Origin: Balanoglossus misakiensis
Lineage: Eukaryota; Animalia; Hemichordata
Length of the DNA: 64,000 nt
Reading direction: 5' to 3'
Assembly (NCBI GenBank): GCA_040954595.2
Contig: CM082591.2
Location: forward strand, 8,710,293-8,774,292
A model generated the notes under the pieces. That model had not been told where the DNA came from, ran no database searches, and was given only the letters and a program-made list of their open reading frames with translations. Positions 20,301 through 58,822 of this stretch are shown here, piece by piece. Every line of letters begins with the position of its first letter. The stretch's first letter is position 1. The translations under genes were made by a program, and so were the position numbers.

Positions 20301-20808
20301 TTTTTTGTAAAAATGACCTTTTTTCACCTCAAAATGTGGCCAAAAATGGCATTTTTGTATTGATTGAGGTCAAAAAGACTGCTTTATATTTTAAAGTCAC
20401 CACTTTTAACATAGAATTGACTTTCCATATATCACCAGATCAATCATTATGAAGAAAACCGTGTGTTGTAAATGTTTTCTAAAAATGACGTTTTTTGGGC
20501 AAAAAATGGTCAAAAAGGCAATTTTGTGTTGTTTTGGGTCAATCGGACTACTTTTTTCGTAATACTCACCAAATTTTACATAGAATAAGCATATCATATG
20601 TCATCACATCTCAGAATGTGACGAAAACAGTCTGTTTTTAGTGTTTTCTAAAAAAGACCATTTTTGGGTTAAAATTGCCAAAATGGCAATTTTGTCTTGA
20701 GTGGGGTCAATAAGACTGACTTTTTTGAAATTAGCACCATTTTTTACATAGAATGGACTTCTCAAACCTTCCTCACCAAAAATTCTGATAAACGGCACCT
20801 ATCTCCTG
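17318..20808. mobile_element. Fold-back element family B, copy 2
   Basis: taggagataggtgccg...cggcacctatctcctg ends; ~171-bp units (anchors ~17371, 17542, 17712, 17884, 18053, 18223); central spacer homologous to 11800-12290. Confidence 0.88.
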
Positions 20809-20889
20809 GACTAATTAGATTTTAATATAGGGTTATTTCACAAAATATTGCCATGTACCGGTATGGACTCTGTATGTGGGGTATTGGAT

Positions 20890-22293: not shown

Positions 22294-23340
22294 TGACATA
22301 CTAATTGAAAGCATTCAACACCCTACGAGGATTCGTGCTATCCTTGTTAGTCTCAGCCAGGTGAAGTCCGGAAATGGGGACTTATAGATTGGGCTCTGCC
22401 TGTGCGTGCATCCGTGCATGTGTCGTTTCACCGACATGCCTGGGTCGATTTTTTTCAAACTTGACACAGGTATGCAACATGTCGCTAAAACGATGAAGTA
22501 GAGGTAAATGAAGGAAAGCAGCGTATCACCAGATCAGATTGTAATCAGATTGATGAGTATCCTGATGTAGGGAATGATTAGACAACACAACATACTGTGT
22601 TCTGTGCCGACTATACTCTTTATTTGTGTCTGACTGACTTTTCGATGGGAGTAAAAGATGTACAGTTTATGTAAGAAAGTATAAAATGAGAAAAATCCTT
22701 TCAATAGAAACAGTGGTGAAAAGAAAGACAAATATCATACTAAAATATTGGCAGCATTTATCGTAATGAGAATGATTTGTCAGTTTTGTAAATGCAAATG
22801 TTTCCACTTCTATTCAATCAAGTATTGTATAAGTAAGATTAGCATTCTTGATAAATATGTTATTCCTTTTTTTTTCATTTTAGTAACGCAAGACAATCCC
22901 TATAAAGTAACGCCATCACTGTCATTCTGGTCCCCCTGGATAGCTCCATGCTCCAGAGGAAGCCAAATTTACAACACAGAATACAAGAAGTGCCCTGGGC
23001 GCTCAACATCTACACATGAGGAAGACTTGGATGATGAGAAAGAACTGACAGAAGAGCTGTTGCTATAGAGTTGCTCTGTGAATCAAAGGTATCACATTGA
23101 AGTGAAAGAATTGCCATAGTTCAGTGTTTTCATTGCACTTGATTTCTTTTAATGTACACATGCCTCAGGCCTAAAAAGCATGAGTTTAATTTTATTTTTG
23201 ATTTCTGTATCCATCTACCGGTATGTCTCTCTGTCACCATCACTGCTTTGCTCCTCCACTGTACTGTTAGCACGCTGAATGTAGTCAATCTGGAGTAAAA
23301 ATGGATGATATCGTGATAATAGTACTTACTTACGCGTTAA

Positions 23341-23526
23341 AGGTATACAGTCACCTACAATTTATATACGCCCATATATGGCTGAAATTGCCTTTTTGAG
23401 GGTTCTAAAGAATGTATGGTGGCGCTCTTTTTTCTGTGTGTGCCACCCACTGAAAATCAGTGATTGGCTAGATCTCAAGTTTACCATAGTAACTTTAGCT
23501 AAATTTCCATAGGTGACCGTATACCT
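23341..23526. mobile_element. Kolobok-type MITE, TTAA TSD
   Basis: ttaa|aggtatacagtcacct ... aggtgaccgtatacct|ttaa. Confidence 0.85.
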
Positions 23527-24029
23527 TTAATAGGACCATAACCCTAAACATAAGCACACTAATGGTAACAATATGAGTCTCCCTGAAGGGCTGTGCATCT
23601 ATTAATTCCTACATTTAATTCACAAATCATTTTGTTCAACAATATATGGGCCTTTCTATCTATGTCATGCCCTGGAGAGACTCTATTTTATGAATGAGCA
23701 CTTACCTGTTCACTAAAATTTGAACAAACCGGTGTTATTCAAAAGTTTGCAAAATAACAATGTACTTCTCAACTCAATTAATTTCTCATCGGCTTTTAGC
23801 TGTTTCAACAGGATTAAGGAATGGACAGTAATGCAAATGTTCAATATAATTTATGAATAAACTGAAATGTGTATTAACTTATGTTCTTGTTCTGCTACCT
23901 CAAGAATGCTGTCTGTTCACAGTAAGTAGTGTTGTTATATTAGTGTAAACTTAGATTTTGCTTTTAAAACAAATGCACTTGAGAGTAGGACAGTCTCCAT
24001 GATTTCCAAGATCCAACCGATGCAAATGA

Positions 24030-25178
24030 TACTTTTTGGGCAAAAACTTGCCAAAAAGGCACTTTTATCTTGAACACATCAATAAAACTGCCTTTTGGGA
24101 TTTTTTTCACATAGAGTGGGCGTATAATACATTATCAGATCTCCGAAAGTGAAGAAAATATAAACGATTTGAGTGCTTCTAGAAATGACGTTTTTGGACA
24201 AAAAGTGTCAAAAATGGCAATTTTGTCTTGAGTATGGTTATTAAGACTGCCATTTCTGGAATCAGCACCATTTTTTACACAGAATGAACATTTCATATAT
24301 CACATGATCTCTAAACTTTATGAAGAAAAGTTTGTTTTTATTTTTTTTTCTAATAATGGCCTTTTAGCCAAAAACTTGCAAAAAAGCCATTTTTGCATTA
24401 TGCAGGGTCAATAAATCTGCTTTTTTGGAATAGTCGCCAAATTTTGCATAGGGTGAGCATATACATGTAATACATTATCAGATCTCCGAAAGTGAAGAAA
24501 ACATATAAGTTTTGAGTGTTTTCTAAAAAGGACGTTGTGGGGCAAAAAGTGGCAAAAATGGCATTTTTTCATTGAGTAGGGTCAATAAGATTGCTATTTC
24601 TGGAATCGGCACCATTTTTTTTACATAGAATGAATATTTTATATATCAAATGATATCTGAATATGAAGTTTTTTTGTAAAAATGACCTTTTTTGACCTCA
24701 AAAAGTGGCAAAAATGGCATTTTTGTATTGATTGAGGTCAAGAAGACTGCTTTATTTTTTTAAGTCACCACTTTTAACATAGAATTGATTTTCCATATAT
24801 CACCAGATAAATCATTATGAAGAAAACCGTGTGTTTTAATTTTTTTCTGAAAATGACGTTTTTTGGGGCAAAAAATGGTTAAAAAGGCAATTTTGTGTTG
24901 TTTTGGGTCAATTGAACTACTTTTATCGTAATATTCACCAAATTTTACATAGAATAAGCATATCATATGTCATCAGATCTCAGAATGTGACGAAAACAAA
25001 GTGTTTTTAGTGTTTTCTGAAAATGACCTGTTTTGGGTTAAAAATGGCCAAAATGGCAATTTTGTCTTGAGTGGGGTCAATAAGACTGACTTTTTTGGAA
25101 TCAGCACCATTTGTTACATAGAATGGACTTCTCAAACCTTCCTTACCAAAAATTCTGATTAACGGCACCTATCTCCTA
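24030..25178 (-). mobile_element. Fold-back family B, copy 3 (right arm only)
   Basis: Same ~170-bp repeats, ending in aacggcacctatctccta. Confidence 0.85.
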
Positions 25179-27620
25179 GCGTAGTAAGAACACCAAGTTC
25201 AACTACTATTACTAATATCTAAATATAGTGTACAGTTCATGGGTCTATAAAGACTGTGACAGCGTTTTACTATTACATTTCAGGTAAAGCGGAGACCATG
25301 TCAGACTGTTTGAAGGCTTTGTTTACCATCTATTTATTCTGCCACAAAATCAAGGTATTAAAGGCTGATGGTGTAGATTTTTCTAAAGCATCTTTATGTC
25401 CTTGAATCCCATACTGGAATTGTAGAACATGCTAGAGAGGACCACTGTCATGTGCTGGAGAGAATAGCTCCCTGTGTCCGTGCTGGTACGATACCCAACA
25501 TTGATGTCAGAAAATTTGTTGAAACACTCCAGGTGTGTAAATATATGTACATTCATTTTCTTTAATAAACATTGACAAACTCATGTAATTTGAATCTTGC
25601 ACTTTGTGACAGACCTTCCCTGTGATGCAATGCATGTCAAATGCAATGACCCATTTTGTTGTTTAAGGCAATTATCATATTTCCATTCAGTGGGGTTGGC
25701 CATAAGCAGTGAATAAAACTTAAAAGGGAGAATTACTAATTTTGACATTTTCATTTGTTTCCTAATATTTTCAAAATCCTTTATGCAATGCAGCAACCGC
25801 ACTTTGAATACAGAACAAACAAATAATACACTGGAACTGCACATTTTTGTTTAACTACTCAGAAATTAAATTCTGTGTCTATTTTGTGATAGGACTTACA
25901 TACACGGGTATGAAGAAAAAGGCAGATTTGTCAAACTTGTCAGCAACTGGCACAAAGCAGCAGATGGCAGAGAGATTACTAAAGAAGAAAGGAGGAAGTT
26001 CAAAAAAGATATGTTGAACTCCATCTTGGTTGACTGGATGCCCTGGCATCATTACAATCCTGATTACAGTACTATTGATCCCCTTAGGTATGTCAAAAAG
26101 CCAGCAAGCCAGCAAGTCAATAATGACCGTCTTTTATTCTGCAAATATCCTCTCTTTTCTAAACAGGTCTGATTTTATGTGCTGGTTTCATAGTCCTCGT
26201 TACCAAACTGTTACTGGGTTGATATTTCAGAGAAGTGCTTTTGCTTGCATAAATGCTTAGTGGTTTATAACTACATGTAATTCTTTACAGACCAATCAAG
26301 GGTTTATGTGGGTTGACGAGATTATAGTTGCTTTGATTGCCAACATTGAAAGTGTAGAATGGAGACGTCGTCAAGGAGGGCTGCCAGAACATCCTAAAGC
26401 TAGTACGACAGATGATGTGGAGGGATTTATTTCTCTCATTCATTCAATGCTGGGCCCAGTCTTTTCACCGCAAGACTTTCCGTGATAATTACAAGTAAGC
26501 AATTACCTAAATTAGTGATATATGTTGACCAGTCATCAGTCACAATGCCGACCTGAACACATCATGTTACTGGCTATAATGAATATAATTACCAAAAAAC
26601 ACATTCATATGCAAATGACTGGTGCCATGACGGTTATGTCCAACTATCACAAAACTTGTCACATTACTGCTCAGGGCACTGTATACTATTATTACATTCA
26701 TTTATGACAGGGGGTCATTTTAATGCACTCTCCTATACATATTATTTTTTCCAGAAAAATATGCAATGAATTTACGAAAAGAGTGGACCCAGATTAACCA
26801 TATTACTACTGGACCGTGAGTGATACACACTTCAACTTAGGACCATTGCCTTCATTCAACCAACCCTCAGGTGAAGTGGAAAGGCTTGATAGAGTCCAGA
26901 TTCGAAGGAGATCCGATCCTGCTGTTTTTCATGCCAACAGGGCATCAGTGCCACAAAGAGGGTCGCTAACAGTGCGGGCACAATTTTTTCAGGCCCCAGA
27001 ATGTCTACCCCCAATTGTGGCTGCCTTAAATAGGTTTTCACTTTGCGCTAGGGGGTCAAATCACATTGCATTCTGGTCGAAAAGTCGACAACCCACTGTA
27101 GTAAGAGATAGAAGAAATGATATGTTTACTGTATTTCATGACTTCCTTGGGTCAAACATGTTTGTCTTTGTAGTTACCATTTTAAACCCATTACACTTTT
27201 TTAACATTTGGTTATTTTTTATGTTAACAAGTTTCAGAATGACCCATCATCACTTTAGCTTATAAACTCCTTTTCCTTAAACATGGCAAAAATCAGCCAT
27301 CTTAATAATGTTTTATTTACCCATTAATTAAAGGGTACATATGATAGGTAAAAATACAAATGGTGGGTAAATATGGAGTCAGGAAATAGCCACAGCTAGT
27401 CTAGCCTGTACTCCTACAATATAGCTTGCTTGGTTACAGAAAAAAAAAAGATAATGTTGAGGGAACACTTGAAGCGTGATTCAAGTACGATCTCACTACA
27501 ACAGTGTAAAGTTATCCATTGCAAATGGTAATGGAAAAAAGAAAGGAACAACAATCACAAACAAACAAACAAAACAGCATCATACTACATCAAGAAAATT
27601 ACAAATTCATTTGTACTGGT

Positions 27621-30557
27621 TTAAGAGGTGTTGTTTAAATGTCCTACGAAATTGGCATAAAGTATTTGAAGACTTAATTTGTGGAGGAATATCGTTCCAG
27701 ATTTTTGCTCCAGTATGTGATATCGAGAACTGGCCTGAGTTTGTTTTGGCATGGAACGGGCGTAGATAGTGATGTAACCAAATTCTGGTATTATGCTCAT
27801 GACTTGTTGGTTAAAATAATCTGAAAGTGAATGTGGAGATTTCTGGTGATATAAATAATAAATGAAGGAACCTAGTAAATAACTGTGAAGCTTGGTAATA
27901 TCCAAAATATTCAGTTGATTAAAGAGAGGAGAAGAATGGTCCATGTGTGATTTGAAAAGCATTATACGTACAATTGTTTTTTGGGCAACTTGGATACAAC
28001 GTAACTTTGTGGGGTAAGTATTGCCCCAAACCTCAAGACCATATGTAACATGGGGGAGTATGAAGGCGTTGTAATGCAAAATTCTGATATGGAGTGGTAA
28101 AATATTTCTAATCTTGTATAAAATTCCACAGTGCTTCCTAATGAGATTATTTATTTTGTTAATTTGATGTGACCATGACAGATGCTTATCCAATAAAACC
28201 CCAACAAATGGTATCACATCAACCTCTTTGATTTCTTCATTCTGGATTTGCAATGACCCAAGAACATTAAGTTTTTTCTGCCGACCCCTAAAAATAATAA
28301 AGTGAGTCTTGGCCCTATTAATTGTTAGTTTGTTGGCATTGCACCATTGCTGAACATCATTTAAATAAGAGGATATATGAGTCAAGTTAATACTATCTGC
28401 ACCTGAGAAGGAATGGAAGAGATTGGAGTCGTCAGCAAATAAACGGAAATCAAAAAATGTAGAAGAATTTGGAAGGTCATTGATATAAATAAGGAAAAGG
28501 GTTGGGCCCAAAACTGATCCCTGTGGGACTCCATTGTGGATCAAGGACTTTTCTGAAACATGACTGGTTAATGTGACATACTGTGAGCGGTCTGTGAGGT
28601 AGCTGTTAAACCAATGCTGGCAGGGGCCCCTAAACCCGTAATGTTCAAGCTTGGACAATAAAGTGGCATGGTGAATGGTATCGAAAGCTTTGCTGAAGTC
28701 AATAAACACCCCCAGTGTGGAATTCCCCTTATCAATTTCTTTTAACAAGTGGTTAACTAAGTTAATCAAAGTGTGCTTGGTGCTATGGTTCTTTCTAAAG
28801 CCATACTGGTGCTTATATAATATATTATATTTATCAAGGTAAGTAATCACTTGTTTGTTTACCACTTTTTCTATCACTTTACTGAACATTGATAAAATGG
28901 CGATGGGTCTGTAGTTCCCAGCAATGTTCTGTTCTCCTTTCTTGAAGATAGGTTTAACCTTAGCGACTTTTAAGGAATTAGGGAAGACACCGGTACAGAA
29001 AGACATATTTATGATGTGGGTCAAAGGTTGAGCAATAACATCAGCTGCATCAATTAGGAGTCTTGGAGGAATATTATCCCACCCACTGGCCTTTTTACTG
29101 TCAAGATGCACCAAAATCTCTTTTATCTCAGCAACCGTAACAGGATGGAGAAAAAAAGAGTTTGGCATAGGATCATTCATATAATTTTTAAAATCTTTTG
29201 TGGTTTTTGGAATGTGTTTTGCCAGATTTTGACCCACATGTACAAAGAAGTCATTAAAACACTTAGCCATATCAGCTGGCTTATCTACCAACCTTTCAAT
29301 CCCATTTACATTGACCTTTAACTGATCTGGTGCTTTATCTAAAGTAGTGTTTTTACCAAGCAACTCATTTACAACATTCCACACTTTACCATTGTTGTTT
29401 ACAGTGAATAAATTAGCATAATACACCCTTTTGGCTTTTCTTAAAACACTTGTAAGAATATTTCTGTAGGTTGTGTAGCGAGCAACAGCACTTGGTTCAT
29501 GTTGTGTGGTGACAACTTTAGCATATAGTTTGCGTTTGGTGCGAATTGACTTCTTAATAGCTTTGGTAATCCAGGGATTTTTGTTACACTTGGCCTTAAT
29601 AGTTTTAACCTCAAGTGGGGCATGATGGTCACACACCTGGCTGAACAAATTGCTGAAGGTGTCAAAAGCAGTGTTTACACAGCTATTGTTATGCATAACA
29701 ACGTTCCAGTTAACATTAATTAAATCAGAAATAAAACGAGCAGAGTTATAGCGCCTGAAATTCCTTGTACAAACTGACCGTACAAATGGCGTGTGGACAT
29801 TGAAGTTGTTGAAAATAGAGAAAATAGGTAAGTGATCTGAAATATCAGCAATAATTGTACCAGCATCAATGTGACAAGAGCTAATATTGGAATAAATATG
29901 ATCAATGGTCGACTTGGAAGTACTTGTAATACGAGTTGGGGAGGAGATTAACTGTTCTAGATGAAGACATTGCATCCTTGGTATAAAATCCCGAGCACTT
30001 GAATCTGGACTTGACACATCAATATTAAAGTCACCCATAAGAATACAATGTTTTTTATCCAGTTTCAAAGAACAAAGAACATTAAAAAGACTGTCTTCAA
30101 ACTCTGTGACACTAGTTCCTGGTTTGCGATATAACACACCGACAACTATGCGATTCTTTAACCCGCATATTTCAAACCATAGTGATTCAGAATGAACCAC
30201 ATTAAAGTTTAACAGTTTGTATTTAAGAGAACAATGAATATATGCCCCTACCCCGCCACCCCGACCGATGTTTCTGCTATTTAACTCAAAAGAGTAATTT
30301 GGCAAATTAAAAAAAGTTGGATTATTGATTTGCCAGGTTTCTGAAACACCAATAATGTGAAAAGGACTGGTGATACATTCATTATACAGGAGACGTACAT
30401 CGTCTATACTATTACAGAGAGATCTTGCATTAATATGAGATACTGAGAAAGAATGGCTGGATCTAGAGCTAAATTTATCATTAAATGTTGACGGTTCTAG
30501 TATATGATTTGTAACTGTGAAAATGTCATCATCTATGTCATTTACTGAGTTTGGCAT
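27621..30557 (-). CDS. LINE ORF2: APE endonuclease + reverse transcriptase (probable frameshift near C-terminus ~27790)
   Basis: HINARSL, GVSETW, GGGVGAYI, MGDFN, TIDHIY, SDHLPI; NYRPIAIL, QYGFR, DFSKAFD, GVPQGSVLGPTLFLIYINDL, LFADD. Confidence 0.95.
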   Translation of the reverse strand: MPNSVNDIDDDIFTVTNHILEPSTFNDKFSSRSSHSFSVSHINARSLCNSIDDVRLLYNECITSPFHIIGVSETWQINNPTFFNLPNYSFELNSRNIGRGGGVGAYIHCSLKYKLLNFNVVHSESLWFEICGLKNRIVVGVLYRKPGTSVTEFEDSLFNVLCSLKLDKKHCILMGDFNIDVSSPDSSARDFIPRMQCLHLEQLISSPTRITSTSKSTIDHIYSNISSCHIDAGTIIADISDHLPIFSIFNNFNVHTPFVRSVCTRNFRRYNSARFISDLINVNWNVVMHNNSCVNTAFDTFSNLFSQVCDHHAPLEVKTIKAKCNKNPWITKAIKKSIRTKRKLYAKVVTTQHEPSAVARYTTYRNILTSVLRKAKRVYYANLFTVNNNGKVWNVVNELLGKNTTLDKAPDQLKVNVNGIERLVDKPADMAKCFNDFFVHVGQNLAKHIPKTTKDFKNYMNDPMPNSFFLHPVTVAEIKEILVHLDSKKASGWDNIPPRLLIDAADVIAQPLTHIINMSFCTGVFPNSLKVAKVKPIFKKGEQNIAGNYRPIAILSMFSKVIEKVVNKQVITYLDKYNILYKHQYGFRKNHSTKHTLINLVNHLLKEIDKGNSTLGVFIDFSKAFDTIHHATLLSKLEHYGFRGPCQHWFNSYLTDRSQYVTLTSHVSEKSLIHNGVPQGSVLGPTLFLIYINDLPNSSTFFDFRLFADDSNLFHSFSGADSINLTHISSYLNDVQQWCNANKLTINRAKTHFIIFRGRQKKLNVLGSLQIQNEEIKEVDVIPFVGVLLDKHLSWSHQINKINNLIRKHCGILYKIRNILPLHIRILHYNAFILPHVTYGLEVWGNTYPTKLRCIQVAQKTIVRIMLFKSHMDHSSPLFNQLNILDITKLHSYLLGSFIYYLYHQKSPHSLSDYFNQQVMSIIPEFGYITIYARSMPKQTQASSRYHILEQKSGTIFLHKLSLQILYANFVGHLNNTS

Positions 30558-30599
30558 GAAGCAATATATGGGAAACCAAGAAAATGTCTACAAGATGGT

Positions 30600-31412
30600 T
30601 TATACAATCTTGGCAAGGTCCAGCTCATTCCTTATCACTAGTACAGGTGACTGCTCACTTTTCTTCACAAGAACTTCACCGTTCCGCGTCCACGCATACT
30701 TATAGCGTGCTGATTTGCGCTTCACGTTCGTCATCTTAAAAAGTTTGCGTGCTTTTGGAGTTAGATTTTCATTTACGTAGATTTTGTTCCGATTGGCATA
30801 TCCAATATCTCCAGTTGTAATGGTCGCTAGCTTCTTTTTGTTCCGGTGGATATAGTCGCGTTTCTTCCTGCTTAAGAATCGCACAATGATTGGTCTTGGG
30901 AAAGTAGGTGCAGCATTGTCACCTGTATGCTTTTGACCTAATCTGTGGGTAATCACAATGTCGTGGTCACTGATACCTGGATCGATCTTTTTTAGCACTG
31001 TTGTTACGATTGCATCTGTATTTTCTCCATCATCTGCACTTTCAGGAATTCCATGAAGTTCAATGTTTTCACGTCTATTGTATTGATTCATACTTTCCAT
31101 AGATTTCTCGAGCTCTGTGATGCGAGTGAAAAGCTGTGCATTCGTTTCTTTGACTTCTTTATTTTCAAGCTCCAAAGTAGAAACTCGTCCACGTACTTCC
31201 TCTACAAGTCCGTTGAAGAACTCCAGTGACGAATTTATTGTGCTTTGGCTTTCTTTGAGCTCAGCAATACTGATCAATAGTGCCGGTATGTGATTTACAT
31301 GTGAACAGATTTCAGCAAGCCGGTTTTCTATTGATTGTGGTGTGCCAGCTGGAGGTGTTGATTGGCAAGAGTCTGATGATCCAGATGGTGTTTGGTCTTT
31401 TCTTCTCGGCAT
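30600..31412 (-). CDS. LINE ORF1 (coiled coil + RRM-like)
   Basis: Heptad region, then QYNRRENIELHGIPE, HRLG, PRPIIVRF, IYVNENLT, YKYAWTRNGEVLVK. Confidence 0.9.
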   Translation of the reverse strand: MPRRKDQTPSGSSDSCQSTPPAGTPQSIENRLAEICSHVNHIPALLISIAELKESQSTINSSLEFFNGLVEEVRGRVSTLELENKEVKETNAQLFTRITELEKSMESMNQYNRRENIELHGIPESADDGENTDAIVTTVLKKIDPGISDHDIVITHRLGQKHTGDNAAPTFPRPIIVRFLSRKKRDYIHRNKKKLATITTGDIGYANRNKIYVNENLTPKARKLFKMTNVKRKSARYKYAWTRNGEVLVKKSEQSPVLVIRNELDLAKIV

Positions 31413-34400
31413 CGTGAATGAGCACAGGTGTTCGATTACACAACGTGGGTTTTAAACAAAGGAGCAGAATTCCAGTACTATTTTGCATGCATAATGAGAT
31501 CGACTGGAACTAACGGCAGGATTCTGTGTGCTGGCTTCGACTTGATAGATAAAAATCAAAACTCACTTTTGACAAAAAGTTACAGCAATCTTCCGCAAAA
31601 ATCCGTTGCCAGCTAATAGTCCACGCCTTCAAAAATCGACACATTGACCGGTGATGAAAAAAAGTTCCAACTAAGGAGTGATTTTTGGCTCTTGAAATTG
31701 TGTCGACCATGTGAGATTTCTATCACCCACCTAGGCAGCCAAAAACCTTTTTAATGTCGGGAGAATTCCATGACCTGGGTGCATGTCCTTATTTAACAGA
31801 ATCGCTCTGACCAAAGCAAAAAAATTTCAGGTCATAATTTTTTCTATTTCAGATTATAATTTTCAGATATTGGTCTCTTCAAAAACACCAGTTGATGATC
31901 AATTTATTGTGTACTGTTATTTTTGAAAGAAAAATCAACATTCAGGATCAGTTGAAATGCTTTGACAATTTCTCCCTTTTTCTATTACATCCATATCCTG
32001 TCATGTGCTGACTCGACTGTAGTATTTTAAATGTGGCAAAATACATGAATGAACTGTTAAAATAAACGGTTTTACCATATACTTTCCCCAGTTAATGGCA
32101 GCAAATATGTGTCACAATTTTAAACAGCATATTTTATAAATAAATGCCAGTACTAGTCAATGCTCTCTGGTCCATCATTGAGGCAGTAGTATCTAGCTGT
32201 CTCCTCTTGTCATGATAGTCTTTTTCCTGTCTCACTTTGATTTTCTTTTACAGTACAAAATTCCTTATAAGTTTCTGTAACCCAAACTATAGAAGACTAA
32301 TGGTTATTCTACACAGCGAACAAAGTGGCAATTTATGCTAATTATCCAAGCTACTGTTAAATGTGTACATGGTGTGTAAATGGCAAGGTCTGGTTCACTG
32401 AGCTGTAGGTAACACACATGTAATGCTAGGCACCTCAACGAGCATTAATCATATAAAGTAAACTTCACACATTTTGTATTTTGTTCAAATCATTTAATTA
32501 GGCAAAACCAAAATAATATATACATGTACATTTATAAGTTAAATTGATCCAGTATTGGACCCAAAATGGGTACAAAATATATACACATAGTCGCATAATG
32601 ATGACCCTCTTCTTGTCAAGTTGGCGGCATTGTAGGTGAGGGAAGGACACATTTTTCATGAGTAGAACAAAATGTGTTCACAAACCATTCACACAAGGTC
32701 TACTTTGTTAATGGACTGGACATTTCCTTGAATGTGCCAAAAGTAATTTGAAAATGCACCCTTTTAAAAAATTCCCAACTCCTCCAGAAGTGTTTTTGAA
32801 TTGAGTCTTAGAGCACTTTTTTATTTTTCATGAAAACAAATTCCTCCCACATGCTGTGTATTTTGGTTATAGTTATCTTCACGTAAAACCCAACTAACAT
32901 CCATGGTGTCCTAAACCTGATGTGATCAACAGATACTGAAAGTTTGCCTTCCGTTAAGGGTTTGTGAACATATTTTGTTAATTCACTTGGTATAAAGCCA
33001 ATATGTTGCCATCCATTGCCCACATCCAAGTCGACTGCAATTGCATTCTTGTATATTTTGTTTGTAAGATCTGGCCATAAGCATGCTTTAACAGGAAGCT
33101 TCTGATCATAGAGTCTAATGTAGCCACGCTCAAGAATTTCCTGTCTTCTCCTGTCATGACATACCCCTAACACCTTGAATGGCACACTGTGTTCAATATT
33201 ATTGAATGGCACACTGTGTTCAATATTATTGGGATCATCTTCATCATCAATGTTATTAATTCTTGCTATACTAGCAGTGTCACTACTAACACTGGAAATA
33301 GACATTAACTCAAGAGAATCAGCTAGTGAATTTGTGTTGTCATTTACAATAGTCCACTTCCACCACATTAAAAAGGATCTACCATTGATATTAACAAGAC
33401 AACAATCACTCTTGGAACACTTTATCAGTGATGGCATGTTAAAAAATTGAGTCTTTCATCTGATAGTTTAATTACACCATGTGACATGTCAGCAAATGGA
33501 GAAGACTGGGGTGTGATGATCTTCACAATACGTAAACTAAGTGTAATAACAGGACAGCATGGCAATGTCCAATCCAAAGCGTCTTCTAGTCCCGTTACTT
33601 TGATTTCAAGATTCACAGACTGAAAAAGAGTGTACAGAATACATGCTGTATTAAGGCTTCATTACATATAACTTTGGGCTATTTAATTGTCCCTTTCTGT
33701 TCAGTATATCAACTGTAGTTTCTTGTTCAACACTCCACAATAGAAAGAAAGACAAAATAGCTAGCAAATATGTGTGAAATTTACAAAGTCAAAAACTTCC
33801 TGTATTAATTGATCAATAGACAAAATATGGCTGACTCTATTACAAATGCATGTGAGGTATGACCATGAGGTATGACCAAGAAAACTTGCACGAGTAAGGT
33901 AACATCTAATGCAAGATGAGAGGTGGACTAGCATTCATCAAAGTGTTTACATGATTATAATGACTCATTTTTCAATGCTGAATAAAATATCCAAATTATC
34001 TGACCTTTTATCTTACCTCTGTAAATATGGACGAAGGGCTGTAGTTATTAATGACGGATAAATCATTAACTGAATTATTCCCAACAGCAAGGCCAAGAGC
34101 GGTTTCTTTACTCAACATTCTGTAGAGCATGGTGTTAAGAACAAATATTTGGCAAATGATGATACAGTGTAGGTATTAGTGAATCACATATACAAACATT
34201 TAATTCACAGATCAAAGCAATTTTTAACATTGAAGTATGTTCAAGACCACTGGTTCAATTGTGATACAGAATATAATAAGATAGTATTAATTCATAGATA
34301 TACAATTAAAGGATACCTTCCAATGTAAGGCATGTCTTTGTACGATGCACCTTCATCATAGGTGTTGAGGGGAACTATGCAGTGCGTGTCCAAATCGAAG

Positions 34401-35489
34401 ACCAAATGATGACTGAAAATGTTCACTGCCTTTTGAAAATTCTGTACATAATCCACGGGTACTTTTATTTGCATATTTAGATATAGCCCCATCCTAGGAA
34501 TAGCCTGAACAAAAGCATACATATTACCAATATGCAAATGAGTATAACATATACCTTAAAATGTTGTATTTCTTAAGAATCTCAATACAGAGATGTACAA
34601 AATTTAATATACTGATTTTAAACTGCATATACACTTGCAGGTGTCATCGGTACGACTGCTAGTGTAACATGATTAAGGATTCTGTCACATGAATTTACAA
34701 ATTTTTGTGTAACACAATACAGTATAATATCACATTTACCTGGAAAATATCCTTATCTTTAATTTGTTTAACAAATTCCACTGATCTCTTAATTCCAACT
34801 CCAGGAATTGATGGAAGATAGTCGCACCATGCTAACACACTTATATAAATAAACTTCAGGAATGACCATTTCTCCATTTCAAAGCACTCCTGAAGTTTAC
34901 TGGCATCAACCATGGGTGCTGTTCCAAACTTGCTATCTGTTTTGGTGAAAACCTGTAATCATATTTGGAAAACAATATGACTCAGAAAATACTAGTACAT
35001 CCCATACAAAACTCACATGCTTATTAACCAGTTTATAAGCCATTGTTTAGCATGCTACATGCTTATTTGTGTATGTATGTATGGGGTGCAGTTCTTAGCA
35101 GTTGCACCCCATACATGTCTATTTTCTAGAGTCTACATGCTTATATCTGAGATGATTAGACTTCAACTAGCATGTACATGTTATGGGCCAAGCAGTCTAC
35201 ATGCTAATGATGACTGGGGTGGTAAAAAAATAACCATGTATGAAGCATGTACACCATTTAGCATGTGATTCTGACAATAGCTAAAGTTCACACGCATGTA
35301 TCTAGCATTGACTGAAGTCCACAAGCAAGTAATTACGGGGCATGTACATAATTTAAGTAGTTGATTAATCCACGTGGCCTCATGACCTCTACTTCCGGGT
35401 CAAACAAAAAATAGCGTCAAGGACACTGTGGTCCCATTTGAGGATTATGCGGAAACAGTGACACACCAGAATAAAAATTACAGGTGACA

Positions 35490-36250
35490 TTGCAAGCAGA
35501 TCTGCAAGCAGCAATATCGGGCCCAAGCTAACATAGCACATAGCAACATAGCAATAAGCATATCTGCTCTGGATGCCAAGATATGGAAAAGTAGGTCAAA
35601 GGTCACCTGAGGTTATGCAAAATTTGGGCAAGAAATTTTGACCCTATACTGGTCCATGTTCAACAAAAACCAAACCTATAGCCCTATTGGTTCGCCTGGA
35701 ATTAGGTATGCACATAATTAATGAGATATACAGGTGTCACAGGTGACCCCAAATTTTGGCTTTTCAATTTTAGTCCCAACCCTCCAAACGCCAAGTCTGT
35801 ACCTGCTCTGGATGCCAAGATATGATAAAGTAGGTCAAAGGTCACCTGAGGTCATGTAAAATTTGGGCAAGAAATTTTGACCCTATACTGGTCCATGTTC
35901 AACAAAAACCAAACCTATAGCCCTATTGGTTAGCCTGGAATTAGGTATGCACATAATAAATGAGATATGCAGGTGTCACAGGTGACCAATATTTTGGCTT
36001 TTCAATTTTAGTCCTAACCCTCCAAACGCCAAGTCTGTACCTGCTCTGGATGCCGAGATATAGGAAAGTAGGTCAAAGGTCACCTGAGGTCACCCAAAAT
36101 TTTGGCAAGAAATTTTGACCCTATACTGGTCCATGTCCCACAAGAACGAAACCTCTAGCCCTATTAGTTAGCCCGGAATTAGGTATGCACATAATTAATG
36201 TGTTAAGCAGGTGTTACAGGTGAGCCCAAAATTTTGCCTTTTATTTTGGC
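35490..36250 (-). mobile_element. Helentron-type non-autonomous element with three ~239-bp tandem repeats
   Basis: Units start at 35564, 35803 and 36041. The end motif gcaagcagc...gggcccaagc is the reverse of the 39075-39105 HINE end. Confidence 0.75.
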
Positions 36251-36399
36251 CCCATTGTGCTCACTGACCAATAGACTTCACTGTACAGGACTATTGCACT
36301 GACCAGAATTCCACGATAAGACGTGGACATAGCTTAACCATAGAGGTATAAGTAAAGTTATAAATTTAATAAAAAGACTAAAAAATTCATAAAAAATAA

Positions 36400-36762
36400 A
36401 ACATCGATGATATTAACTTAACACTTACAGGTCGATGTGAGGTTGACATATGGTACATGCATACCAATTTTTAAAGCAATCTGACGAGTAGTTGTTGACT
36501 TTCAGAGTTTTGATAAATTTCACATTTTTCCAGCTAATTTGCATATTTTTGGGCCTGGCAACTTCGTTTGGACAAACTCCCATCTACAGCCCAGCCTACA
36601 CTACACACCAAATATTGAGGTGATACGCGCAGCGGTTTTCAAGTTTTTGATGTGGACGGACATACAGACATACATCCATCCATACATCCATACATACATA
36701 CAGACGCAACTGATCCCATAAGGTCCCATGGTATATATGCCTATACCAATGGGACCTAAAAA
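36400..36762 (-). mobile_element. HINE-like element with (CATA/CATC)n; related copy at 47281-47520 (+)
   Basis: aggtcccatggtata...tataccaatgggacct hairpin plus microsatellite; the reverse complement resembles 47283-47520. Confidence 0.65.
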
Positions 36763-37087
36763 TACAGTGTGCGCATGCGCAAACTCCAACCCCCATATTT
36801 AACGGTTTTCTGGTTGACAAGTTGGATTGTACGTCGCGTACATCTTGGAGTACAATGTCGCAGCCCAGTAAGCTATTGTTTATCCTCCACTTGTACATTT
36901 GGAAGGGCGAGTTTACACTTTTATCGATGCTGCAGTTTGGATGAATTGACTGTTCAAAATAGATAAATGCAGAGCATTGCTTTAGTTAGACTTTGTTGTT
37001 AGCGCAGGACGTTCATGGACATGGTCAGTGTATATAGGTCAGTGTTACCATATTGGCCAACTGTGCTAAGAGTGTGAGTGTACGATC

Positions 37088-39110
37088 ATTAGGGGACCAA
37101 GCACCCTCAGGCGCTTGGTCCCCTTCTGTTATTGCTGGAGTTTTTCTTCTTTCTTCTTGAGTCGTTTTTTTGCTCCCGTTTTTCTCTGAAATTCCGGCAC
37201 CTGCGCCTATGAAGTTTGGCACGGTGATTGGGGCCCATGAGTACTGGTGCACCTGCCCTTTGAATTTGTAATTAGTCACGTGACTTGGTGGCTATAATCG
37301 AGCGAAATTTTCAAATTGACCTAATTTGCACGTTAATGGGGGAATGTACATTCTTTTCGCGATTTTTGTAGACCATGTGGCCAAAATCCCCTGTGCCAAA
37401 TTTCAAGGTCCTAGGCCACGTCGATTTTGAGAAGAAGATTTTTGTAATATTTTTCGCATTTTTGGTGGGCTGAGGACGGACACTGGGGCATCGGACTTTG
37501 ACCGTCATTACGTAATGTTGTGGAGATCTCATTAGCAGGCTACTCACTTCTGGCGGGTTGCAGTAGTCCTTGGAAAATCGGCTGAAATACGTAAACAGAC
37601 CAGTGATTATATTCCACAGAATGAATTTTGGGATAACACATTATCGGAGTTCAGGCTGTGTTAGGGCGTTTTATTGAATTACGCTGAGTTTGTTAGCTGT
37701 TGCTGTTCAAATGTTTCTATCCAGACCCGGCTACACTGGTTAACATTCAATGTAATGCGGCAGCGGACTTTGACCCTCAGTCGCTAATGTGGCCGAAATA
37801 CGTCAGCAGACCAATGATTTTCTTGCACGAAGGGAGTATGGTACCAGCAATAATCAGAGATCAGGCTTCGTTGCCGTTCAACAGTTCCTACTTCAGTCGT
37901 GACGTTGCAACTGAACGTTCAGTATGGGGGTTGGCCCGCAGGTGGCCGTGGGGGTTATCAGGTCGCCCGTAATGGCACGCAGCTTCATGCAGCTGTATGG
38001 GACCAAAATAATACGCCCGATTCGGGGTTCACCTGTGAAACCTGCGTAACTCAATTATGTGCATGCGTAATTGTGGGGTCAATGAAAGGGATGCTAGTGT
38101 GGTATTTGTTGCAAATGGATCAATATGAAGTCCGATTTTCCTGTCAAGTTATGGGCGATCTTATGTGACATTTCACCTACTTTTGCTTAGTGAGCATCCA
38201 CAGCAGATGCATGCAGTTTTGGCGTGGGGGGGGGGGGGGGGCATATACGGATGGGACCATAAAGATATACCAAAGGCGGGGTCACCTGTTGCACCTGCCT
38301 AAGTCATTGATTTTGTACATTTAATTGGACACTAACCAACAGGGCAATATGTGTGGTTTTTGTTCCACAGGGACGAATGTAAGTGTCAGTTTGTTTTTGC
38401 CCAAATGTATAAGGTGATTTGGATGACCTCTGTCATACAGTGCCATATCTCAGCCCGTTGTACAAGTGCAGCTTTGGTATTCGGAGCGAAACTATCATGA
38501 AATGCCAAATACAGGGGGATACCTGCGACACCTGCTTGATTCATGTATTACGTGCATACCTAATGGTAGGCAAAGTGAAAGGGCTGCAAATGTAGGATTT
38601 GTTGCACATGACATAAACAGGAATGACAATTTTTTGTCAAATTTTTGGGTGACCTGCTTTCCATATGTTAGCATGCACATCATATATAGCCAGGTGTTTG
38701 GAGGGGTAGGGTAGGACCCTCTGCGTCATGAAATGCTAAATTCCTGGGGCTACCTGTAACTTACTTGCGTAACTCATTATTATGGCCATATCTAATTTGA
38801 CAAACCCAAACAGCGAGGATTTTCCGTTGTCTTGAATATGAACCACATAAGAATCCTAATTTTTGGCCCAATTTTTGGGTACCCTCAGCTGACCTTTGAA
38901 GTAACTGAAGTACTTACAACGTAGAAGTTCACCTTTGGTTGTTGTGTTTGTACTTGTAAGACATCCATTTCGGGTGGTTGCCTACTTCCTCATATCTCCA
39001 CATCCAGAGCAAATACAGCCTACGCATTTGAATGGTACAACCCTGAATGGAGTCTAATGGTTATTAACTCTATGCTTGGGCCCTTTCAACGCTGCTTGCA
39101 GCTTTATTTT
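37088..39110 (+). mobile_element. Helentron-type non-autonomous element
   Basis: 5' hairpin ggggaccaagc...gcttggtcccc, CTT-rich tract, degenerate internal repeats, 3' gcttgggccc...gctgcttgcagc end. Confidence 0.7.
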
Positions 39111-41269
39111 AATTTAAATTTGCTGCAAATTTACGTGGACCTCACAGCAATTGGTTAAATGCTATGTGGCTCGCTCCTGACGGGGTTAACAGTCTGGCTG
39201 AACATATTTAGTGCATGACATTAAATTTTAGCCTTTGAGTCGCTTTGTGTCCACACACACAAAGTTTAAGCATAGACCATGACAAACTTGAATTCTGCGT
39301 GAAAGAATATAGCTTTTGTTTTGTCTCTACTCAATTGAAATTGAGAAAATAAAGCATCTCAAGTTGATCTTAATTGGTTTGTCTTGCTTCACATTTTTGA
39401 GGTAAGCCTTACTATTTTTTAAGTGAAAACTCATGCCAGAAGAAGTGCTGCGTGAAGTGTTATTGTTGTCACTATTACTTCTGAACTTTGTGGGATAACC
39501 AAGCAATTTATAAATACATAACATAACAATGCACTGTAATATTTAGGCTGCATAATTTTGCATGTCGATTATATATGCATGTACATGCATGGCAGTTATC
39601 AAGCATGTACATCATGCTTAAGCATGTACATGTATGAAGCAAGATCAACTATGTATATGCAAATATTTTTCCAGCAATGTACAGGTTTATGATTAAGCAT
39701 GTATATGAAAATGTTCTTAGCATGTACATGCTTATTGTACAATCTCATTTAAATAATTCAGCCTATATACATGTCACATGCTTGTAAAGTCCATAGATGA
39801 TTGCAGAAAGCATGTACAGTCTTAACGTACAAATTACCAGTCAAGTAACATGTACAGGCTAATACCTGACCACTAAATACATGCTTAAAACAGGCATGCG
39901 AGTTTTGTAAGGGATGACATACATGTACTGTCTTTGTAAGCAAAATCAAAAAATGTTTAGACTAATGAAACTTACTTTAGCTGCTCCATAAACAATGGCA
40001 TTAGAGTCTTCTGTCATGACGCCATAAACTTTGCCACACATCGACAAACAGACCATCTGGGCATCTGCCTCATATGGTGCAACTATGTAGTCAATTTTAT
40101 GTTCACCAAGACTCTATAAAAACAAATAAATGCGACAAAAATTCTCTGTGAAAATGTGTAGCAATACTGTGATTTTAACAATGATACACTTATTGTTGAA
40201 AGTTAGCCATTTATTTTTTATAAAACAACTAGTTGTTCAAAGCAATATGAAATATTTTTACCTTGATTACTTTTTGTACCATTGCTTCGGTGATTTTGGC
40301 ACTGGCAAGAAAATGTCTCTGGGAGTCGCAGTAGTTTTTCTGCTCCCACATTCTGTAATGAAAGTTCACGTTGCCTGGGCAAAGCATAGAAATCAGTTAG
40401 TGAATTGACATAAGACACCATACTTAAGAAATATATACAACAGCAGCAAATCAGTGAAATTGGACATTTTGATGCAAAAACGAATCTCTTTACCTTTTAC
40501 GTTTGTTATTTTTGATTTGCTTGGGGGAATATGATTGTCCAGCAAACACAACCAGTGGCTTGATTCTGAGGTTTTTAAATTTCAGAACCACCTTTAGGAA
40601 ATATTTTATGTATCTAGTGTAACCAAAAAATGTTAAAAAATAACATTGTACATAAAAAAATAATGACATAATAACAAGCTACAAAATTACCAGACAGTGA
40701 TTCTTGACATGAGGAAAACCCTCTGCAGTAACTCTGTCACTAGACAGTGATTAACATAACAATGACAAAGTGTGGCTTATATTTGCACTCCAATAAACAA
40801 CCAACATCTTTCTATACAATTTCTGTGTTGACCAAGACGTTCACATTTCAGTTATAATCTCCCAAATGGCGGTTTTCCACCAACGTTTGGGGGATTACTA
40901 CGTACAAAGCTGGCCTGGTTTGGCATGATTAACAATGGTCCCACATAATAAATTAAAAGCAAATCATAATGACAAATGTATAAACAAATAAAAATTTAAT
41001 TCAATAAAGATATATTAAAAATATAATTGTACCTGTCTGTTGGCAAGTTCATTGCTAGCTCTCTTGCACAGCCACAGGAACCTTTATGCAAAAGCATGGA
41101 AGCGTCCACTGCCAGTGTCTTTCCACTAAATTTCTGCAGCTGCACATGACCTGTTGCCGTATTTATTTGGCTGTATAGGTTCTTAATCCCCATCGCGTAT
41201 TTCGACCTATGTACACAAGTTATTATTATTAATATTATTACTACTCCTATAGGTGGTGTTGTGGTTGAT

Positions 41270-41510
41270 TTGCAATGTGGAAGCCTCAGGCCAAGCAAGA
41301 TGCCACAAGGTATACTGGCAGTCATTTCTATGGAAAATGCATGATGCTTGAGTTGAAGCATCGACATGAATATCAGTGATGGCCTGGGGTCAATGAATTT
41401 GTGTGTACCATTGAAGTATGTCAGGTAATTCAGCCACCATTCTATGTCAAGTTGGAAGTCACAGGAAAGAAGCACTTTGTGGGATGGAGACGGAGATGTG
41501 AAGCAAGTTC
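41270..41510 (-). mobile_element. DIRS/Ngaro retroelement RT-RNaseH fragment
   Basis: KVLLSCDFQLDIEWWLNYLTYFNG resembles the DL.WW..FL...NG motif of tyrosine-recombinase retroelements. Confidence 0.6.
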
Positions 41511-42227
41511 TGGCTGGTGTTGTCAGGAAGTAAGACAGAGGTGTAGCTGTTGTTGGAGTGTTAGTGTTCATGCTTGTAGCATATGAGAATGGACTTACTT
41601 TTAAATGCGTTGTTACAGGTACACTGGCTTGTTCAGCTTCGGAGATTGTACAAACAGTAGGTAGTTGAGCTTGCAGCAGTTAGATACACGCAGACCTGGA
41701 TACACACACCATAGACCCCAGAGACTCTTCGGTCTATGCACAGACATACACGGCAGGCATACAAGGGAAGCGCATATAACCGGAAGTGAACGGGCTGATG
41801 TCTCGCAAGAGAATGAAAGCCTGAGGCTGATATGGTTACGATTCACCGCTAGAGGGCGTTTGCGTTGCAGACACCGCCTGCACGTACCCATACTTCCAAC
41901 AGAAATCAATTTTCAAGAGTACTGCTTCCACACGATTGCATGATCTACCATATCTGTGCAATACAAAGCAAAGAGAGAGCATTTGTTAAATATTAAACTA
42001 CTTTGGTTGGTTAATTTGAGAACTTTTAGACAAATATGTGGCACAAAGAGAAATATTGAAACACATAAAATTATTTAGACTAATATTAACAACAATAATT
42101 GGATAAAACTAAATTATTCTGCAGTTTTTATATTTGAGTTAGTATAAACTATTTATCAGAGTCATTTTATTTTTATTGATACTAGTAAGTAGAATTTAAA
42201 ATTTCAAAATGTTGATATAGCTACATA

Positions 42228-42441
42228 GATTTAATATTTTCATGAAAATCATGAGTGATTTTAACCTATTTTGAAAAAAAATTTAATGACATTTTTCTAC
42301 AAGAGATAAATTAAAAATATAGTTTTAGTCACACTGTCAACAATACCTGCCAGCTGGTGTTCATATAGAATATAAAATGAAGAAGTGTTTTTTTTCAAAA
42401 TAGGTTAAAATCACTCATGATTTTCATGAAAATATTAAATC
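42228..42441. repeat. 54-bp perfect inverted repeat (42228-42281 / 42388-42441)
   Basis: gatttaatattttcatgaaaatcatgagtgattttaacctattttgaaaaaaaa and its reverse complement. Confidence 0.9.
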
Positions 42442-42787
42442 AAGCACTACCGATGTCATCACATTTAAACTTTCCGGTAGATCAATAAACGAGTCTTGAC
42501 CATGAGGACCTCACGGTTTTGTACTGTAAACAGTAGTCATGTACGTACTGGCATTTAAGGTATCACTCATCAAATAATTCCTTGTCATATTAATATCCTC
42601 GTCAACATAATTACATGTCTGCTATCTACCACCACACAAACCGATTACGTGCCTAGCTTCACTATTCACAGCCGTACGTATCACTGTTACCGATCAGGCC
42701 TAAAGAAATACGCGTCGGCAAAAAAGTTATGAAAGTCGCCGAAAATTCGAGTGACAATGCGAGATTCGACTCGAAATGCCTTGAATG

Positions 42788-43140
42788 GCACACTAAATGT
42801 GTCATTCAATGTAAAAACTCACCTCAAAAGTTCGTTTTCACTGTGATTCCCATAAAAATCGCCTCAGCAACGTCTTAGATCTGATCTGTCAGCTGACCTA
42901 AAGTTTTACCTTTTGACCCCGTGACCTCGCGCAGAGCGTCATGGGTATCTGGAACTGGCGCACTAAATTTGTCATTCAATGTAAAAACTCACCTCAAAAG
43001 TTCGTTTTCACTGTGATTCCCCAAAAAATCGCCTCAGCAACGTTTGTTTACAATGTCTGCTCTGATCTGCTACGCTGACCTGAAGTTTTACCTTTTGACC
43101 CCGTGACCTCGCGCAGAGCGTCATGGGTATCTGGAACTGG
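42788..43140. repeat. ~170-180-bp tandem duplication in a CpG-rich, promoter-like region
   Basis: cactaaat.tgtcattcaatgtaaaaactcacc...gggtatctggaactgg occurs twice. Confidence 0.9.
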
Positions 43141-43579
43141 AAACGCGCGAGATTTGTATACAAGTATGGCGGGCGCTCTGCGACCTTGGATACACCGTGT
43201 TCGAAATACGGACTTGAGAGAGGGCTCTCTAGGACCTTGGAATCTGAAATGTGTAAGTAATCGTTTTCCTAGATGTTTATTTGTTGCAATGAACGTGGTT
43301 TGCGGCTTGCAAGAGTAAATTTCAGATAAAAGGATATCGAACTTGTTCAGTCTGACTTGATGTTCCAGCAAACGAGTGTTTCCATGTAAAGCCCAGGGTA
43401 AAGACTTAGTAAAGGAGCGTGAAAAGGGCCTTACAGGTTTTGAACAGTCATGAAACTTTACAGGTCGTGGCACATATATGTAAGAAATGTGTGTGCCAAG
43501 TGTGAAGTCTCTATTTTTATTGGACCGGAATTCGTCCCAAAATGTATGGAGGCATGTCACGTCGCTGTCAAATATCACA

Positions 43580-56199: not shown

Positions 56200-56389
56200 G
56201 CGTAATCATCATTATCATCACCAACTTCATCATCATCATCATCATCATCAATCACAATCATCATCATCATCATCATCAATCACAATCATCATCATCATCA
56301 CAATCATCATCATCATCACTTACCTCCATACATACCTACAAACCAACAAACAAACAAACAAACCTTCTTCCATCATCATCATCTTCATC

Positions 56390-56425
<36 letters not shown>

Positions 56426-56454
56426 TTCATCATTACAATCATCATCATCATCAT

Positions 56455-56487
<33 letters not shown>

Positions 56488-56761
56488 TTCATCATCACAA
56501 TCATCATCATCATCATCATCATCATCACCATCATCATCATCATAATCATCATCATCATCTTCATCATCACAATCATCATCATCTTAATCATCATCATCAT
56601 CATAATCATCATCATCATCATCATCATTCCATCATCATCATCATCATCATAATTTTCTTCATCATCATCATCTTCATTATCACAATCATCATCATCATCA
56701 TCACCTTACCTCCATACCTACCTACAAACAAACCAACCAACAAACAAACAAACCTCCATCT

Positions 56762-56794
<33 letters not shown>

Positions 56795-57811
56795 TTCATC
56801 AACTTCATCATCACAATCATCATCATCATCATCTTAATCAAAATCATCATCATCATCATCACCATCATCATCATTCCATCTTCATCCTCATCTTCATCTT
56901 CATCATCTTCATCTTCATCATCATCACAATCATCATCATCATCATCTTCATTATTATCATCTCAATCATCATCATCATCATCATCTTCATCTTTATCTTC
57001 ATCATCATCACAATCATCATCATCTTCATTATCATCATCAAATCATCATCTTCATCTTCATCATCATCATCATCATCATCTTCATCTTCATCATCTTCAT
57101 CATCATCATCATCACAATTATCATTATCATCATCATTATCATCATCTTCATCATCTTCATCTTCATCATCTTCATCACCTTACCTCCATACATACCTACA
57201 AACAAACAAACAAACCTCCATCCATCATCATCATCATCACCTTCATCTTCATCTTCATCATCTTCATCTTTATCATCATCATTCCATCATCATCATAATC
57301 ATCATCTTCATCATCATCATTTTCATCATCATCATTCCATCATAATCTTCATCATCATCATCATCACAATCATCATCATCTTCATCTTCATCATTATCAT
57401 CATCATCACCTTACCTCCATACCTACCTACAAACAAACCAACCAACAAACAAACAAACCTCCATCTATCATCATCATCATCATCTTAATCATCATCATCT
57501 TCATCATCATCACAATCATTATCATCATCTTCATTATTATCATCTCAATCATCATCATCATCATTGTCATCTTCATCTTCATCATCATCACAATCATCAT
57601 CATCATCATCATCTTAATCATCATCATCATCACCATCATCATCATCATAATCATCATCTTCATCTTCATCATCTTCATCTTCATCATCATCACAATCATC
57701 ATCATCATCTTCATTATTATCATCTCAATCATCATCATCATCATCTTCATCTTCATCATTATCACAATCATCATCATCATCTTCATCATCATCATCATCT
57801 TCATCATCATC

Positions 57812-57842
<31 letters not shown>

Positions 57843-57857
57843 CATCATAATCATCAT

Positions 57858-57888
<31 letters not shown>

Positions 57889-58453: not shown

Positions 58454-58492
<39 letters not shown>

Positions 58493-58692: not shown

Positions 58693-58726
<34 letters not shown>

Positions 58727-58822
58727 TTCATCTTCATCATCATCACAATCATCATCATCATCATCATCTTCATCATCATCATCTTCATCTTCATCTTCAT
58801 CATCATCATCTTAATCATCATC

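What the first reader, a model, noticed from the sequence alone, without database searches (positions are those of the whole stretch)
22886..43140. Candidate large, unclassified DNA transposon: P-like transposase convergent with EXO1-HIRAN
Seen: a + strand spliced gene carrying REDHCH (DxxH-like), WHKAADGR, DWMPWH and PEHPKASTTDDVEGFIS (like the P-element D..E.FS catalytic Glu motif) ends tail-to-tail with the minus-strand EXO1-HIRAN gene. Removing the LINE leaves ~1.5 kb between them, and both genes show similar decay. Inference: they are two genes of one element that carries its own DNA-end-processing enzyme, as ISL2EU carries a YqaJ exonuclease. I cannot assign this transposase to a named superfamily, and I did not find the termini.
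Basis: partly seen in the sequence, partly recalled or inferred. Interest (0 to 1): 0.85.

Follow-up and report, generated by a model that had tools for sequence, protein, structure and literature searches.

The report
P-like transposon carrying EXO1-HIRAN gene
This is a broken copy of a jumping gene from a widespread marine-animal family, related to the fruit-fly P element, that carries a second gene for a predicted DNA-end-binding (HIRAN) protein, here fused to a copy of the DNA-repair nuclease EXO1, which likely steers repair of the break it leaves so that the element gains copies.

Summary
Both genes are real, both are decayed, and they belong to one element. The transposase family is predicted to fold like Drosophila P transposase (best Foldseek hit). 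It has D/D/DxxH/E, but a Myb/SANT-like N-terminus instead of THAP and two extra insertions. In animal contigs picked by transposase alone, a convergent HIRAN gene follows in 44 of 47 informative loci and 22 of 22 families. In the window's clade, 6 families fuse HIRAN to an EXO1 nuclease with conserved active-site residues and low dN/dS. Relatives have CAG…CTG terminal inverted repeats, and 4 HIRAN-only copies have 9-bp target duplications. Ptychodera flava appears to carry the pair at two loci.

Corrections: the window holds only the last 30% of the transposase, and the 22886 exon does not match it. A right end at 41880 is only a candidate; no left end or target duplication was found. Ten literature searches found no description; Repbase and Dfam could not be checked. 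The role of EXO1-HIRAN is inferred.

The parts
25284..25532 (+). Transposase exon (P0015 aa ~824-910), includes REDHCH (DxxH); one frameshift
25893..26087 (+). Transposase exon (aa ~911-1009), about 33 codons deleted plus a frameshift; WHKAADGR, DWMPWH
26291..26494 (+). Transposase exon with the predicted catalytic Glu (DDVEG, E1054 of P0015); frameshifts
26755..27028 (+). Last transposase exon; premature stop
27301..31691 (-). Nested LINE (ORF1 30600-31451, APE-RT ORF2 27621-30587), inserted in a high-copy repeat between the two genes; not part of the element
   Evidence: Pfam; joint 27300-31692
32808..33620 (-). Last exon of EXO1-HIRAN: linker domain plus HIRAN; frameshift near 33450; the conserved Asp of the PxNxxD motif is changed
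   Evidence: Atlas structure hits to HIRAN clusters for P0016
34017..34955 (-). EXO1 exons 5-7 (aa ~181-349, GCDY motif changed to WCDY)
34956..39972 (.). EXO1 intron 4, swollen by high-copy repeats
39973..41193 (-). EXO1 exons 1-4 (XPG_N and XPG_I), ATG at 41193
   Evidence: P0016 against human EXO1 E 8e-77
41861..41880 (-). Candidate right terminal inverted repeat (reads CAGGCGGTGT inward), 687 bp upstream of the EXO1 ATG; about 60% likely
   Evidence: 9/10 match to left-end motif of L003 and L048; 73 of 2000 resamples give such a hit; a run contig diverges just before 41881
23990..25180 (.). 5'-truncated non-autonomous 170-bp-unit element lying where the missing 5' two-thirds of the transposase would be; unrelated insertion, left limit approximate

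Best explanation
This is a decayed, 5'-truncated copy of a two-gene DNA transposon whose transposase is predicted to fold like the P-element enzyme and whose convergent EXO1-HIRAN gene likely acts on the break left by excision, HIRAN likely holding the free 3' strand while EXO1 would resect the 5' strand. Shown in relatives: terminal inverted repeats, 9-bp target duplications (HIRAN-only forms), dispersed near-identical copies, a near-constant HIRAN partner inside the termini, and purifying selection on all three domains (about 0.93 sure that it is one element). Inferred: cut-and-paste through the DDE site; P-like staggered cleavage leaving 3' single-stranded tails; resection that favours homologous gap repair from the sister chromatid, which would restore the donor copy and raise copy number (about 0.45-0.5). 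HIRAN-only forms would protect or mark the 3' end and rely on host EXO1.
For: Fold: AF2 model of an intact relative (L002 core, pLDDT 87); the only Foldseek hits at E<0.001 are P-element transposase 6pe2/6p5a (E 2e-4, prob 1.0), ahead of RAG1, Transib and Hermes. PF21787 matches 24 of 147 members, best E 3e-6, weakly in P0015. Atlas feature hits are P/THAP9 clusters (0.95). Linkage: 41 of 47 informative loci by tblastn, shuffled control 0 hits, 3 more by profile; 22 of 22 families; median gap 481 bp. P. flava has the pair on two chromosomes with accessions 11-12 apart, while two accessions of one identical protein are 9 apart (adjacency inferred). Ends; homology of EXO1-bearing L011 and L017 stops exactly at the terminal motif beyond EXO1. 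All seven EXO1 acidic residues are kept in P0016 and L017; dN/dS for L017 vs L052 is 0.13 (transposase), 0.18 (XPG), 0.10 (HIRAN). HIRAN N, D, G, Y positions are kept in 41-43 of 42-46 rows. P elements leave 17-nt 3' extensions (PMC7776569, passages); HIRAN binds 3'-OH ssDNA ends and lets HLTF free protein-blocked breaks for resection (PMC11237066, passages).
Against: No biochemical or expression data. No EXO1-bearing element was recovered with both ends, so its target duplication is unknown. The window has no left end or target duplication, and its right end is weak (p about 0.04). HIRAN-only families spread recently without EXO1 (97% identical copies), so the nuclease is dispensable. The structural match to P is partial (TM 0.32 by query, 0.49 by target; 10% identity), and sequence searches of solved structures found no P transposase. 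Nothing shows that this family cleaves as P does. dN/dS for XPG in the two close pairs is 0.50 and 0.65, and dS in the divergent pair is near saturation (1.3-1.9). 3 of 47 loci lack HIRAN, and 2 short contigs have it in a non-convergent place.
Confidence: 0.55

Rival explanations
1. Same element, but the accessory protein works on the transposon ends or the integration product: EXO1 would create the 3' extension by resecting the non-transferred strand, or trim 5' flaps during gap filling, with HIRAN anchoring it at the 3' end.
For: P0016 aligns with human EXO1 over the whole nuclease domain and with FEN1/XPG flap nucleases. P strand transfer uses long 3' extensions.
Against: HIRAN-only families make clean 9-bp duplications without the nuclease. 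The transferred 3'-OH must sit in the DDE site rather than in a HIRAN pocket (inference).
Confidence: 0.22
2. The accessory protein mainly antagonises the host: HIRAN competes with HLTF/Rad5 or end-joining factors for 3' ends, and EXO1 is a later add-on.
For: An isolated HLTF HIRAN domain acts as a dominant negative in vitro (PMC11237066). HIRAN is the constant part.
Against: This does not explain the retained EXO1 active site in 6 families.
Confidence: 0.15
3. EXO1-HIRAN is neutral captured host DNA, or a host paralogue that happens to lie beside a transposon relic.
For: The gene has introns. In this genome the run contigs give no sign of a large family (depth is not copy number).
Against: Linkage in 22 of 22 families with fixed orientation, location inside the termini, and low dN/dS between divergent families.
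Confidence: 0.05

Closest known systems
P superfamily (Drosophila P element, THAP9, Galileo, 1360, repleta P/BuT5)
   Same: Best structural hit; split RNase H fold with helical insertion after DxxH; D/D/DxxH/E; short TIRs; 9-bp duplications occur in BuT5 (PMC3698922, passages).
   Different: No THAP found; weak Myb/SANT-like N-terminus. About 160-aa coiled coil between strands 1 and 2 and about 140 aa between strands 4 and 5. D-D spacing 218 and D-E 327 in P0015 versus 73 and 228 in P. Second gene with HIRAN, with or without EXO1. Canonical P makes 8-bp duplications.
Kolobok lineages with accessory nucleases (KolobokP, E, D, H)
   Same: C/DxxH transposase plus an accessory nuclease; in KolobokP it lies downstream on the opposite strand (PMC9587614, passages).
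   Different: Kolobok has TTAA duplications and RR..YY ends; here CA..TG ends and 9 bp. The cargo is EXO1/HIRAN, not His-Me, lambda-exonuclease, DnaQ or RecQ.
ISL2EU (transposase plus YqaJ exonuclease)
   Same: Two convergent genes with an end-processing nuclease; one such element sits at window 1-3994.
   Different: IS5/Harbinger-type transposase (DDE_Tnp_4) and a different nuclease fold.
Academ (AcademX with XPG domain, AcademH with helicase) - recalled, paper not held
   Same: An XPG-family nuclease carried by an animal DNA transposon (recalled); 9-bp duplications in AcademH (recalled).
   Different: As recalled, XPG is part of the transposase protein and termini are TAG..CTA; here a separate convergent gene and a P-like fold. 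Not compared by sequence.
Host EXO1 and HLTF/Rad5 HIRAN
   Same: aa 1-346 of P0016 align with the human EXO1 nuclease domain, E 8e-77; HIRAN by weak Pfam match and predicted structure.
   Different: The nuclease is followed by an unnamed ~130-aa region and HIRAN instead of the long host tail (recalled); no translocase or RING domain.

Membership tests
P superfamily | Split RNase H fold with DDE triad | tested here: met
   Model of L002 core: D35, D257, E588 on strand 1, strand 4 and the last core helix; conserved 43/46, 18/25, 46/53; Foldseek best hit 6pe2. The window copy keeps only the Glu.
P superfamily | DxxH signature before a helical insertion domain | tested here: met
   His in 109 of 111 rows, Asp in only 50 of 110; follows strand 5 in the model. 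The motif is shared with hAT, MuDR, Kolobok and Dada.
P superfamily | N-terminal THAP domain | tested here: not met
   No THAP among the listed Pfam hits for P0015, P0011 or the top 25 families of 147 members; Myb/SANT-like hits in 3-4 members.
P superfamily | 7-8 bp target duplication (8-9 in the repleta lineage) | tested here: inconclusive
   Exactly 9 bp in 4 of 6 copies with both ends (L031, L054, L063, L081; none in L055, L062). All are HIRAN-only; none found in the window.
P superfamily | Short TIRs with CA..TG ends (end rule recalled) | tested here: met
   CAG.GG.GGT..GAC-type ends in more than 10 families; window only a candidate.
P superfamily | GTP cofactor and 17-nt staggered cleavage | not testable with these tools
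   Needs biochemistry; GTP-contact residues were not mapped.
Kolobok | TTAA duplication, RR..YY termini | tested here: not met
   9-bp variable duplications and CA..TG ends.
ISL2EU | DDE_Tnp_4 transposase plus YqaJ exonuclease | tested here: not met
   Neither domain in P0015 or P0016.
Academ | Academ transposase with fused XPG, TAG..CTA ends (recalled) | tested here: inconclusive
   Gene layout and termini differ from the recalled description; no Academ sequence was available and the paper is not held.
EXO1 (XPG/Rad2 family) | Seven acidic active-site residues | tested here: met
   All kept in P0016 and L017; the window copy has two replaced.

The most novel reading that the evidence does not exclude
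An uncatalogued superfamily-level lineage, sister to P, found from sponges to chordates. It uses a Myb/SANT rather than THAP binder and always carries its own 3'-end reader (HIRAN). One branch captured host EXO1 to build a break-resection enzyme, so the transposon controls how its donor site is repaired.
Probability: 0.35. Interest if true: 0.85.

Novelty: new variant of a known kind. Interest (0 to 1): 0.72.

Why it matters
Cut-and-paste elements gain copies only if the host repairs the empty site from a template that still holds the element. A transposon that encodes a 3'-end-binding domain and, in one branch, EXO1 itself makes it testable whether elements steer that repair choice. Natural with-EXO1 and without-EXO1 forms are the comparison. 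The family is large (4515 clusters at 50% identity with E<=0.001; how many are true members was not checked). Named members come from a sponge, cnidarians, hemichordates, a brittle star and amphioxus, and are annotated as uncharacterized or hypothetical. It also explains extra 'exonuclease 1-like' genes in at least one genome, and Dysidea has at least 8 near-identical loci, candidates for an active element.

Tried and rejected
A TIR-plus-duplication scan of the window gave only two low-complexity pairs. A candidate end at 41956 was dropped because run contigs continue across it. A candidate left end at 21113 was dropped: 3 mismatches, no duplication, and it lies inside another inverted-repeat element. 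Exon 22886 had no match in fetched proteins, loci or viral contigs. Viral contigs hold no transposase relative. Single-sequence folding failed (pLDDT 36). VIA-align was never available. No RNA holder was listed, which says nothing about expression. Contig depth was not used as copy number. Six look-ups in earlier findings were empty. Ten paper searches showed no paper on such an element in the listed rows; only the top rows were seen. AcademH and Yuan and Wessler 2011 are not held; no supplements were read. No complex prediction was run, as no binding claim is made. Host invertebrate EXO1 sequences were not fetched, so the origin and monophyly of the captured EXO1 are untested.

Full report
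Setting. The closest named relatives of both genes are from the hemichordate Ptychodera flava, which suggests but does not show the host group.

Observation. Eight minus-strand exons at 41193-32808 match aa 1-606 of P0016. The first 346 aa of P0016 align with human EXO1 (E 8e-77); its end is HIRAN-like by weak Pfam hits and predicted structure. Both genes are broken. Transposase aa 1-823 are absent from window 1-56000, and the 22886 exon matches nothing fetched. Contigs of runs X1 and X2, which are one sample, join 27300 to 31692 without the LINE, leaving about 1.4 kb between the genes.

Transposase. A profile search found 4515 clusters at E<=0.001. An intact 699-aa core from L002, folded with 147 sequences, gave pLDDT 87. 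Its only Foldseek hits at E<0.001 are P-element transposase, although the match is partial (TM 0.32/0.49). The predicted triad is D509/D727/E1054 in P0015, with the DxxH His at 884. Unlike P, no THAP was found, the N-terminus is weakly Myb/SANT-like, and two extra insertions lengthen the core (P numbering from PMC7776569, passages).

Linkage. The best 80 of 96 metagenome loci were chosen by transposase alone. In 47 of them the transposase 3' end and at least 1 kb downstream are present. Of these, 41 have a convergent HIRAN gene by tblastn (shuffled control 0) and 3 more by profile. Collapsed at 80% nucleotide identity, 22 of 22 informative families have it. L001, L045 and L046 lack it; L033 and L043 have it out of place. 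XPG exons occur in 12 of 80 loci, in 6 of 32 families. The 11 placed in the tree all fall in the clade holding the window (support 0.99, midpoint root, 5 short rows dropped including L059). Many other loci are too short to show XPG. In P. flava the two genes occur on the same contig at two loci with neighbouring accessions (adjacency inferred, coordinates not seen).

Ends. Seven copies of one HIRAN-only family in one assembly are about 97% identical with sharp limits. They have 19-bp TIRs, and 3 have exact 9-bp duplications. L081, another family, gives a fourth. Of 6 copies with both ends, 2 lack a duplication. A related end motif lies beyond EXO1 in L011 and L017, exactly where their homology stops, and upstream of the transposase in L029 and L052, so the EXO1 gene is inside the element. 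In the HIRAN-only forms with a right end, 460-970 bp separate the HIRAN match from the end, too little for an EXO1 domain. In the window, 41880 is a candidate right end (73 of 2000 resamples give such a hit; one contig diverges there). No left end or duplication was found.

Selection. Between L017 and L052, dN/dS is 0.13, 0.18 and 0.10 for transposase, XPG and HIRAN, with dS near saturation. The two close pairs give 0.50 and 0.65 for XPG, as expected with decay after insertion; HIRAN is 0.10-0.59 in the 10 of 12 pairs with a value. The PxNxxD and GY positions of HIRAN are nearly invariant; their match to the HLTF 3'-end pocket is recalled, not tested.

Mechanism. Shown: mobility marks in relatives, linkage and constraint. 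From papers: P excision leaves 17-nt 3' extensions; HIRAN binds 3'-OH ssDNA ends, helps HLTF clear Cas9 from breaks before resection, and alone is dominant negative (PMC11237066, passages; PMC4666394, one passage). Inferred: the accessory protein binds the 3' tail at the empty site, and EXO1 resects the other strand, favouring templated repair that restores the element. Rivals are action on the transposon ends, antagonism of host repair, and neutral cargo; the last is unlikely.

Novelty. Accessory nucleases are known in Kolobok lineages (PMC9587614, passages), in ISL2EU, and, as recalled, Academ. Nine-bp duplications occur in a divergent P lineage (PMC3698922, passages). Passages of PMC10045372, PMC4455052 and PMC12859917 added nothing on this family. 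Ten searches showed no paper on a HIRAN- or EXO1-carrying P-like transposon. Repbase and Dfam could not be searched; I put the chance that it is already listed there at about one in three. It works like a P element with added cargo, but it fails the THAP test, so I do not file it as a canonical P member. Verdict: real, a new variant of a known kind, interest 0.72.

Noticed in passing
window 1-3994: ISL2EU-type element: THAP-DDE_Tnp_4 transposase convergent with a YqaJ exonuclease (split by a stop), inside near-perfect inverted repeats of about 480 bp.
   Followed up: partly
window 14784-17320: Two long ORFs with weak DUF1258 and DUF4218 hits, EnSpm/CACTA-like by recall, cut off at 17317 by a non-autonomous element.
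   Followed up: no
window 10199-13730, 17317-20810, 23990-25180: Family of non-autonomous elements with long arms built from ~170-bp units; the first sits inside another inverted-repeat element, 9631-14297.
   Followed up: no
window 22886-23088: Exon-like stretch with AG and GT borders and a W/P-rich reading frame; no match found; probably a relic of a different element.
   Followed up: partly
window 56200-64000: Long CAT/CTT-rich simple-repeat array with almost no G on the + strand.
   Followed up: no
L081 (near the end of a 2.77-Mb Nitrospirales MAG contig): A complete spliced 5980-bp element of this family with piggyBac-like ORFs (by recall) on both sides; looks like animal DNA joined to a bacterial assembly rather than true transfer.
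   Followed up: partly
P0017-P0027 (Dysidea avara): At least 8 loci encode near-identical full-length transposases, which suggests recent activity.
   Followed up: no
window 43140-46300: Possible 5' end and early exons of another gene on the + strand beyond the element; seen by eye only.
   Followed up: no
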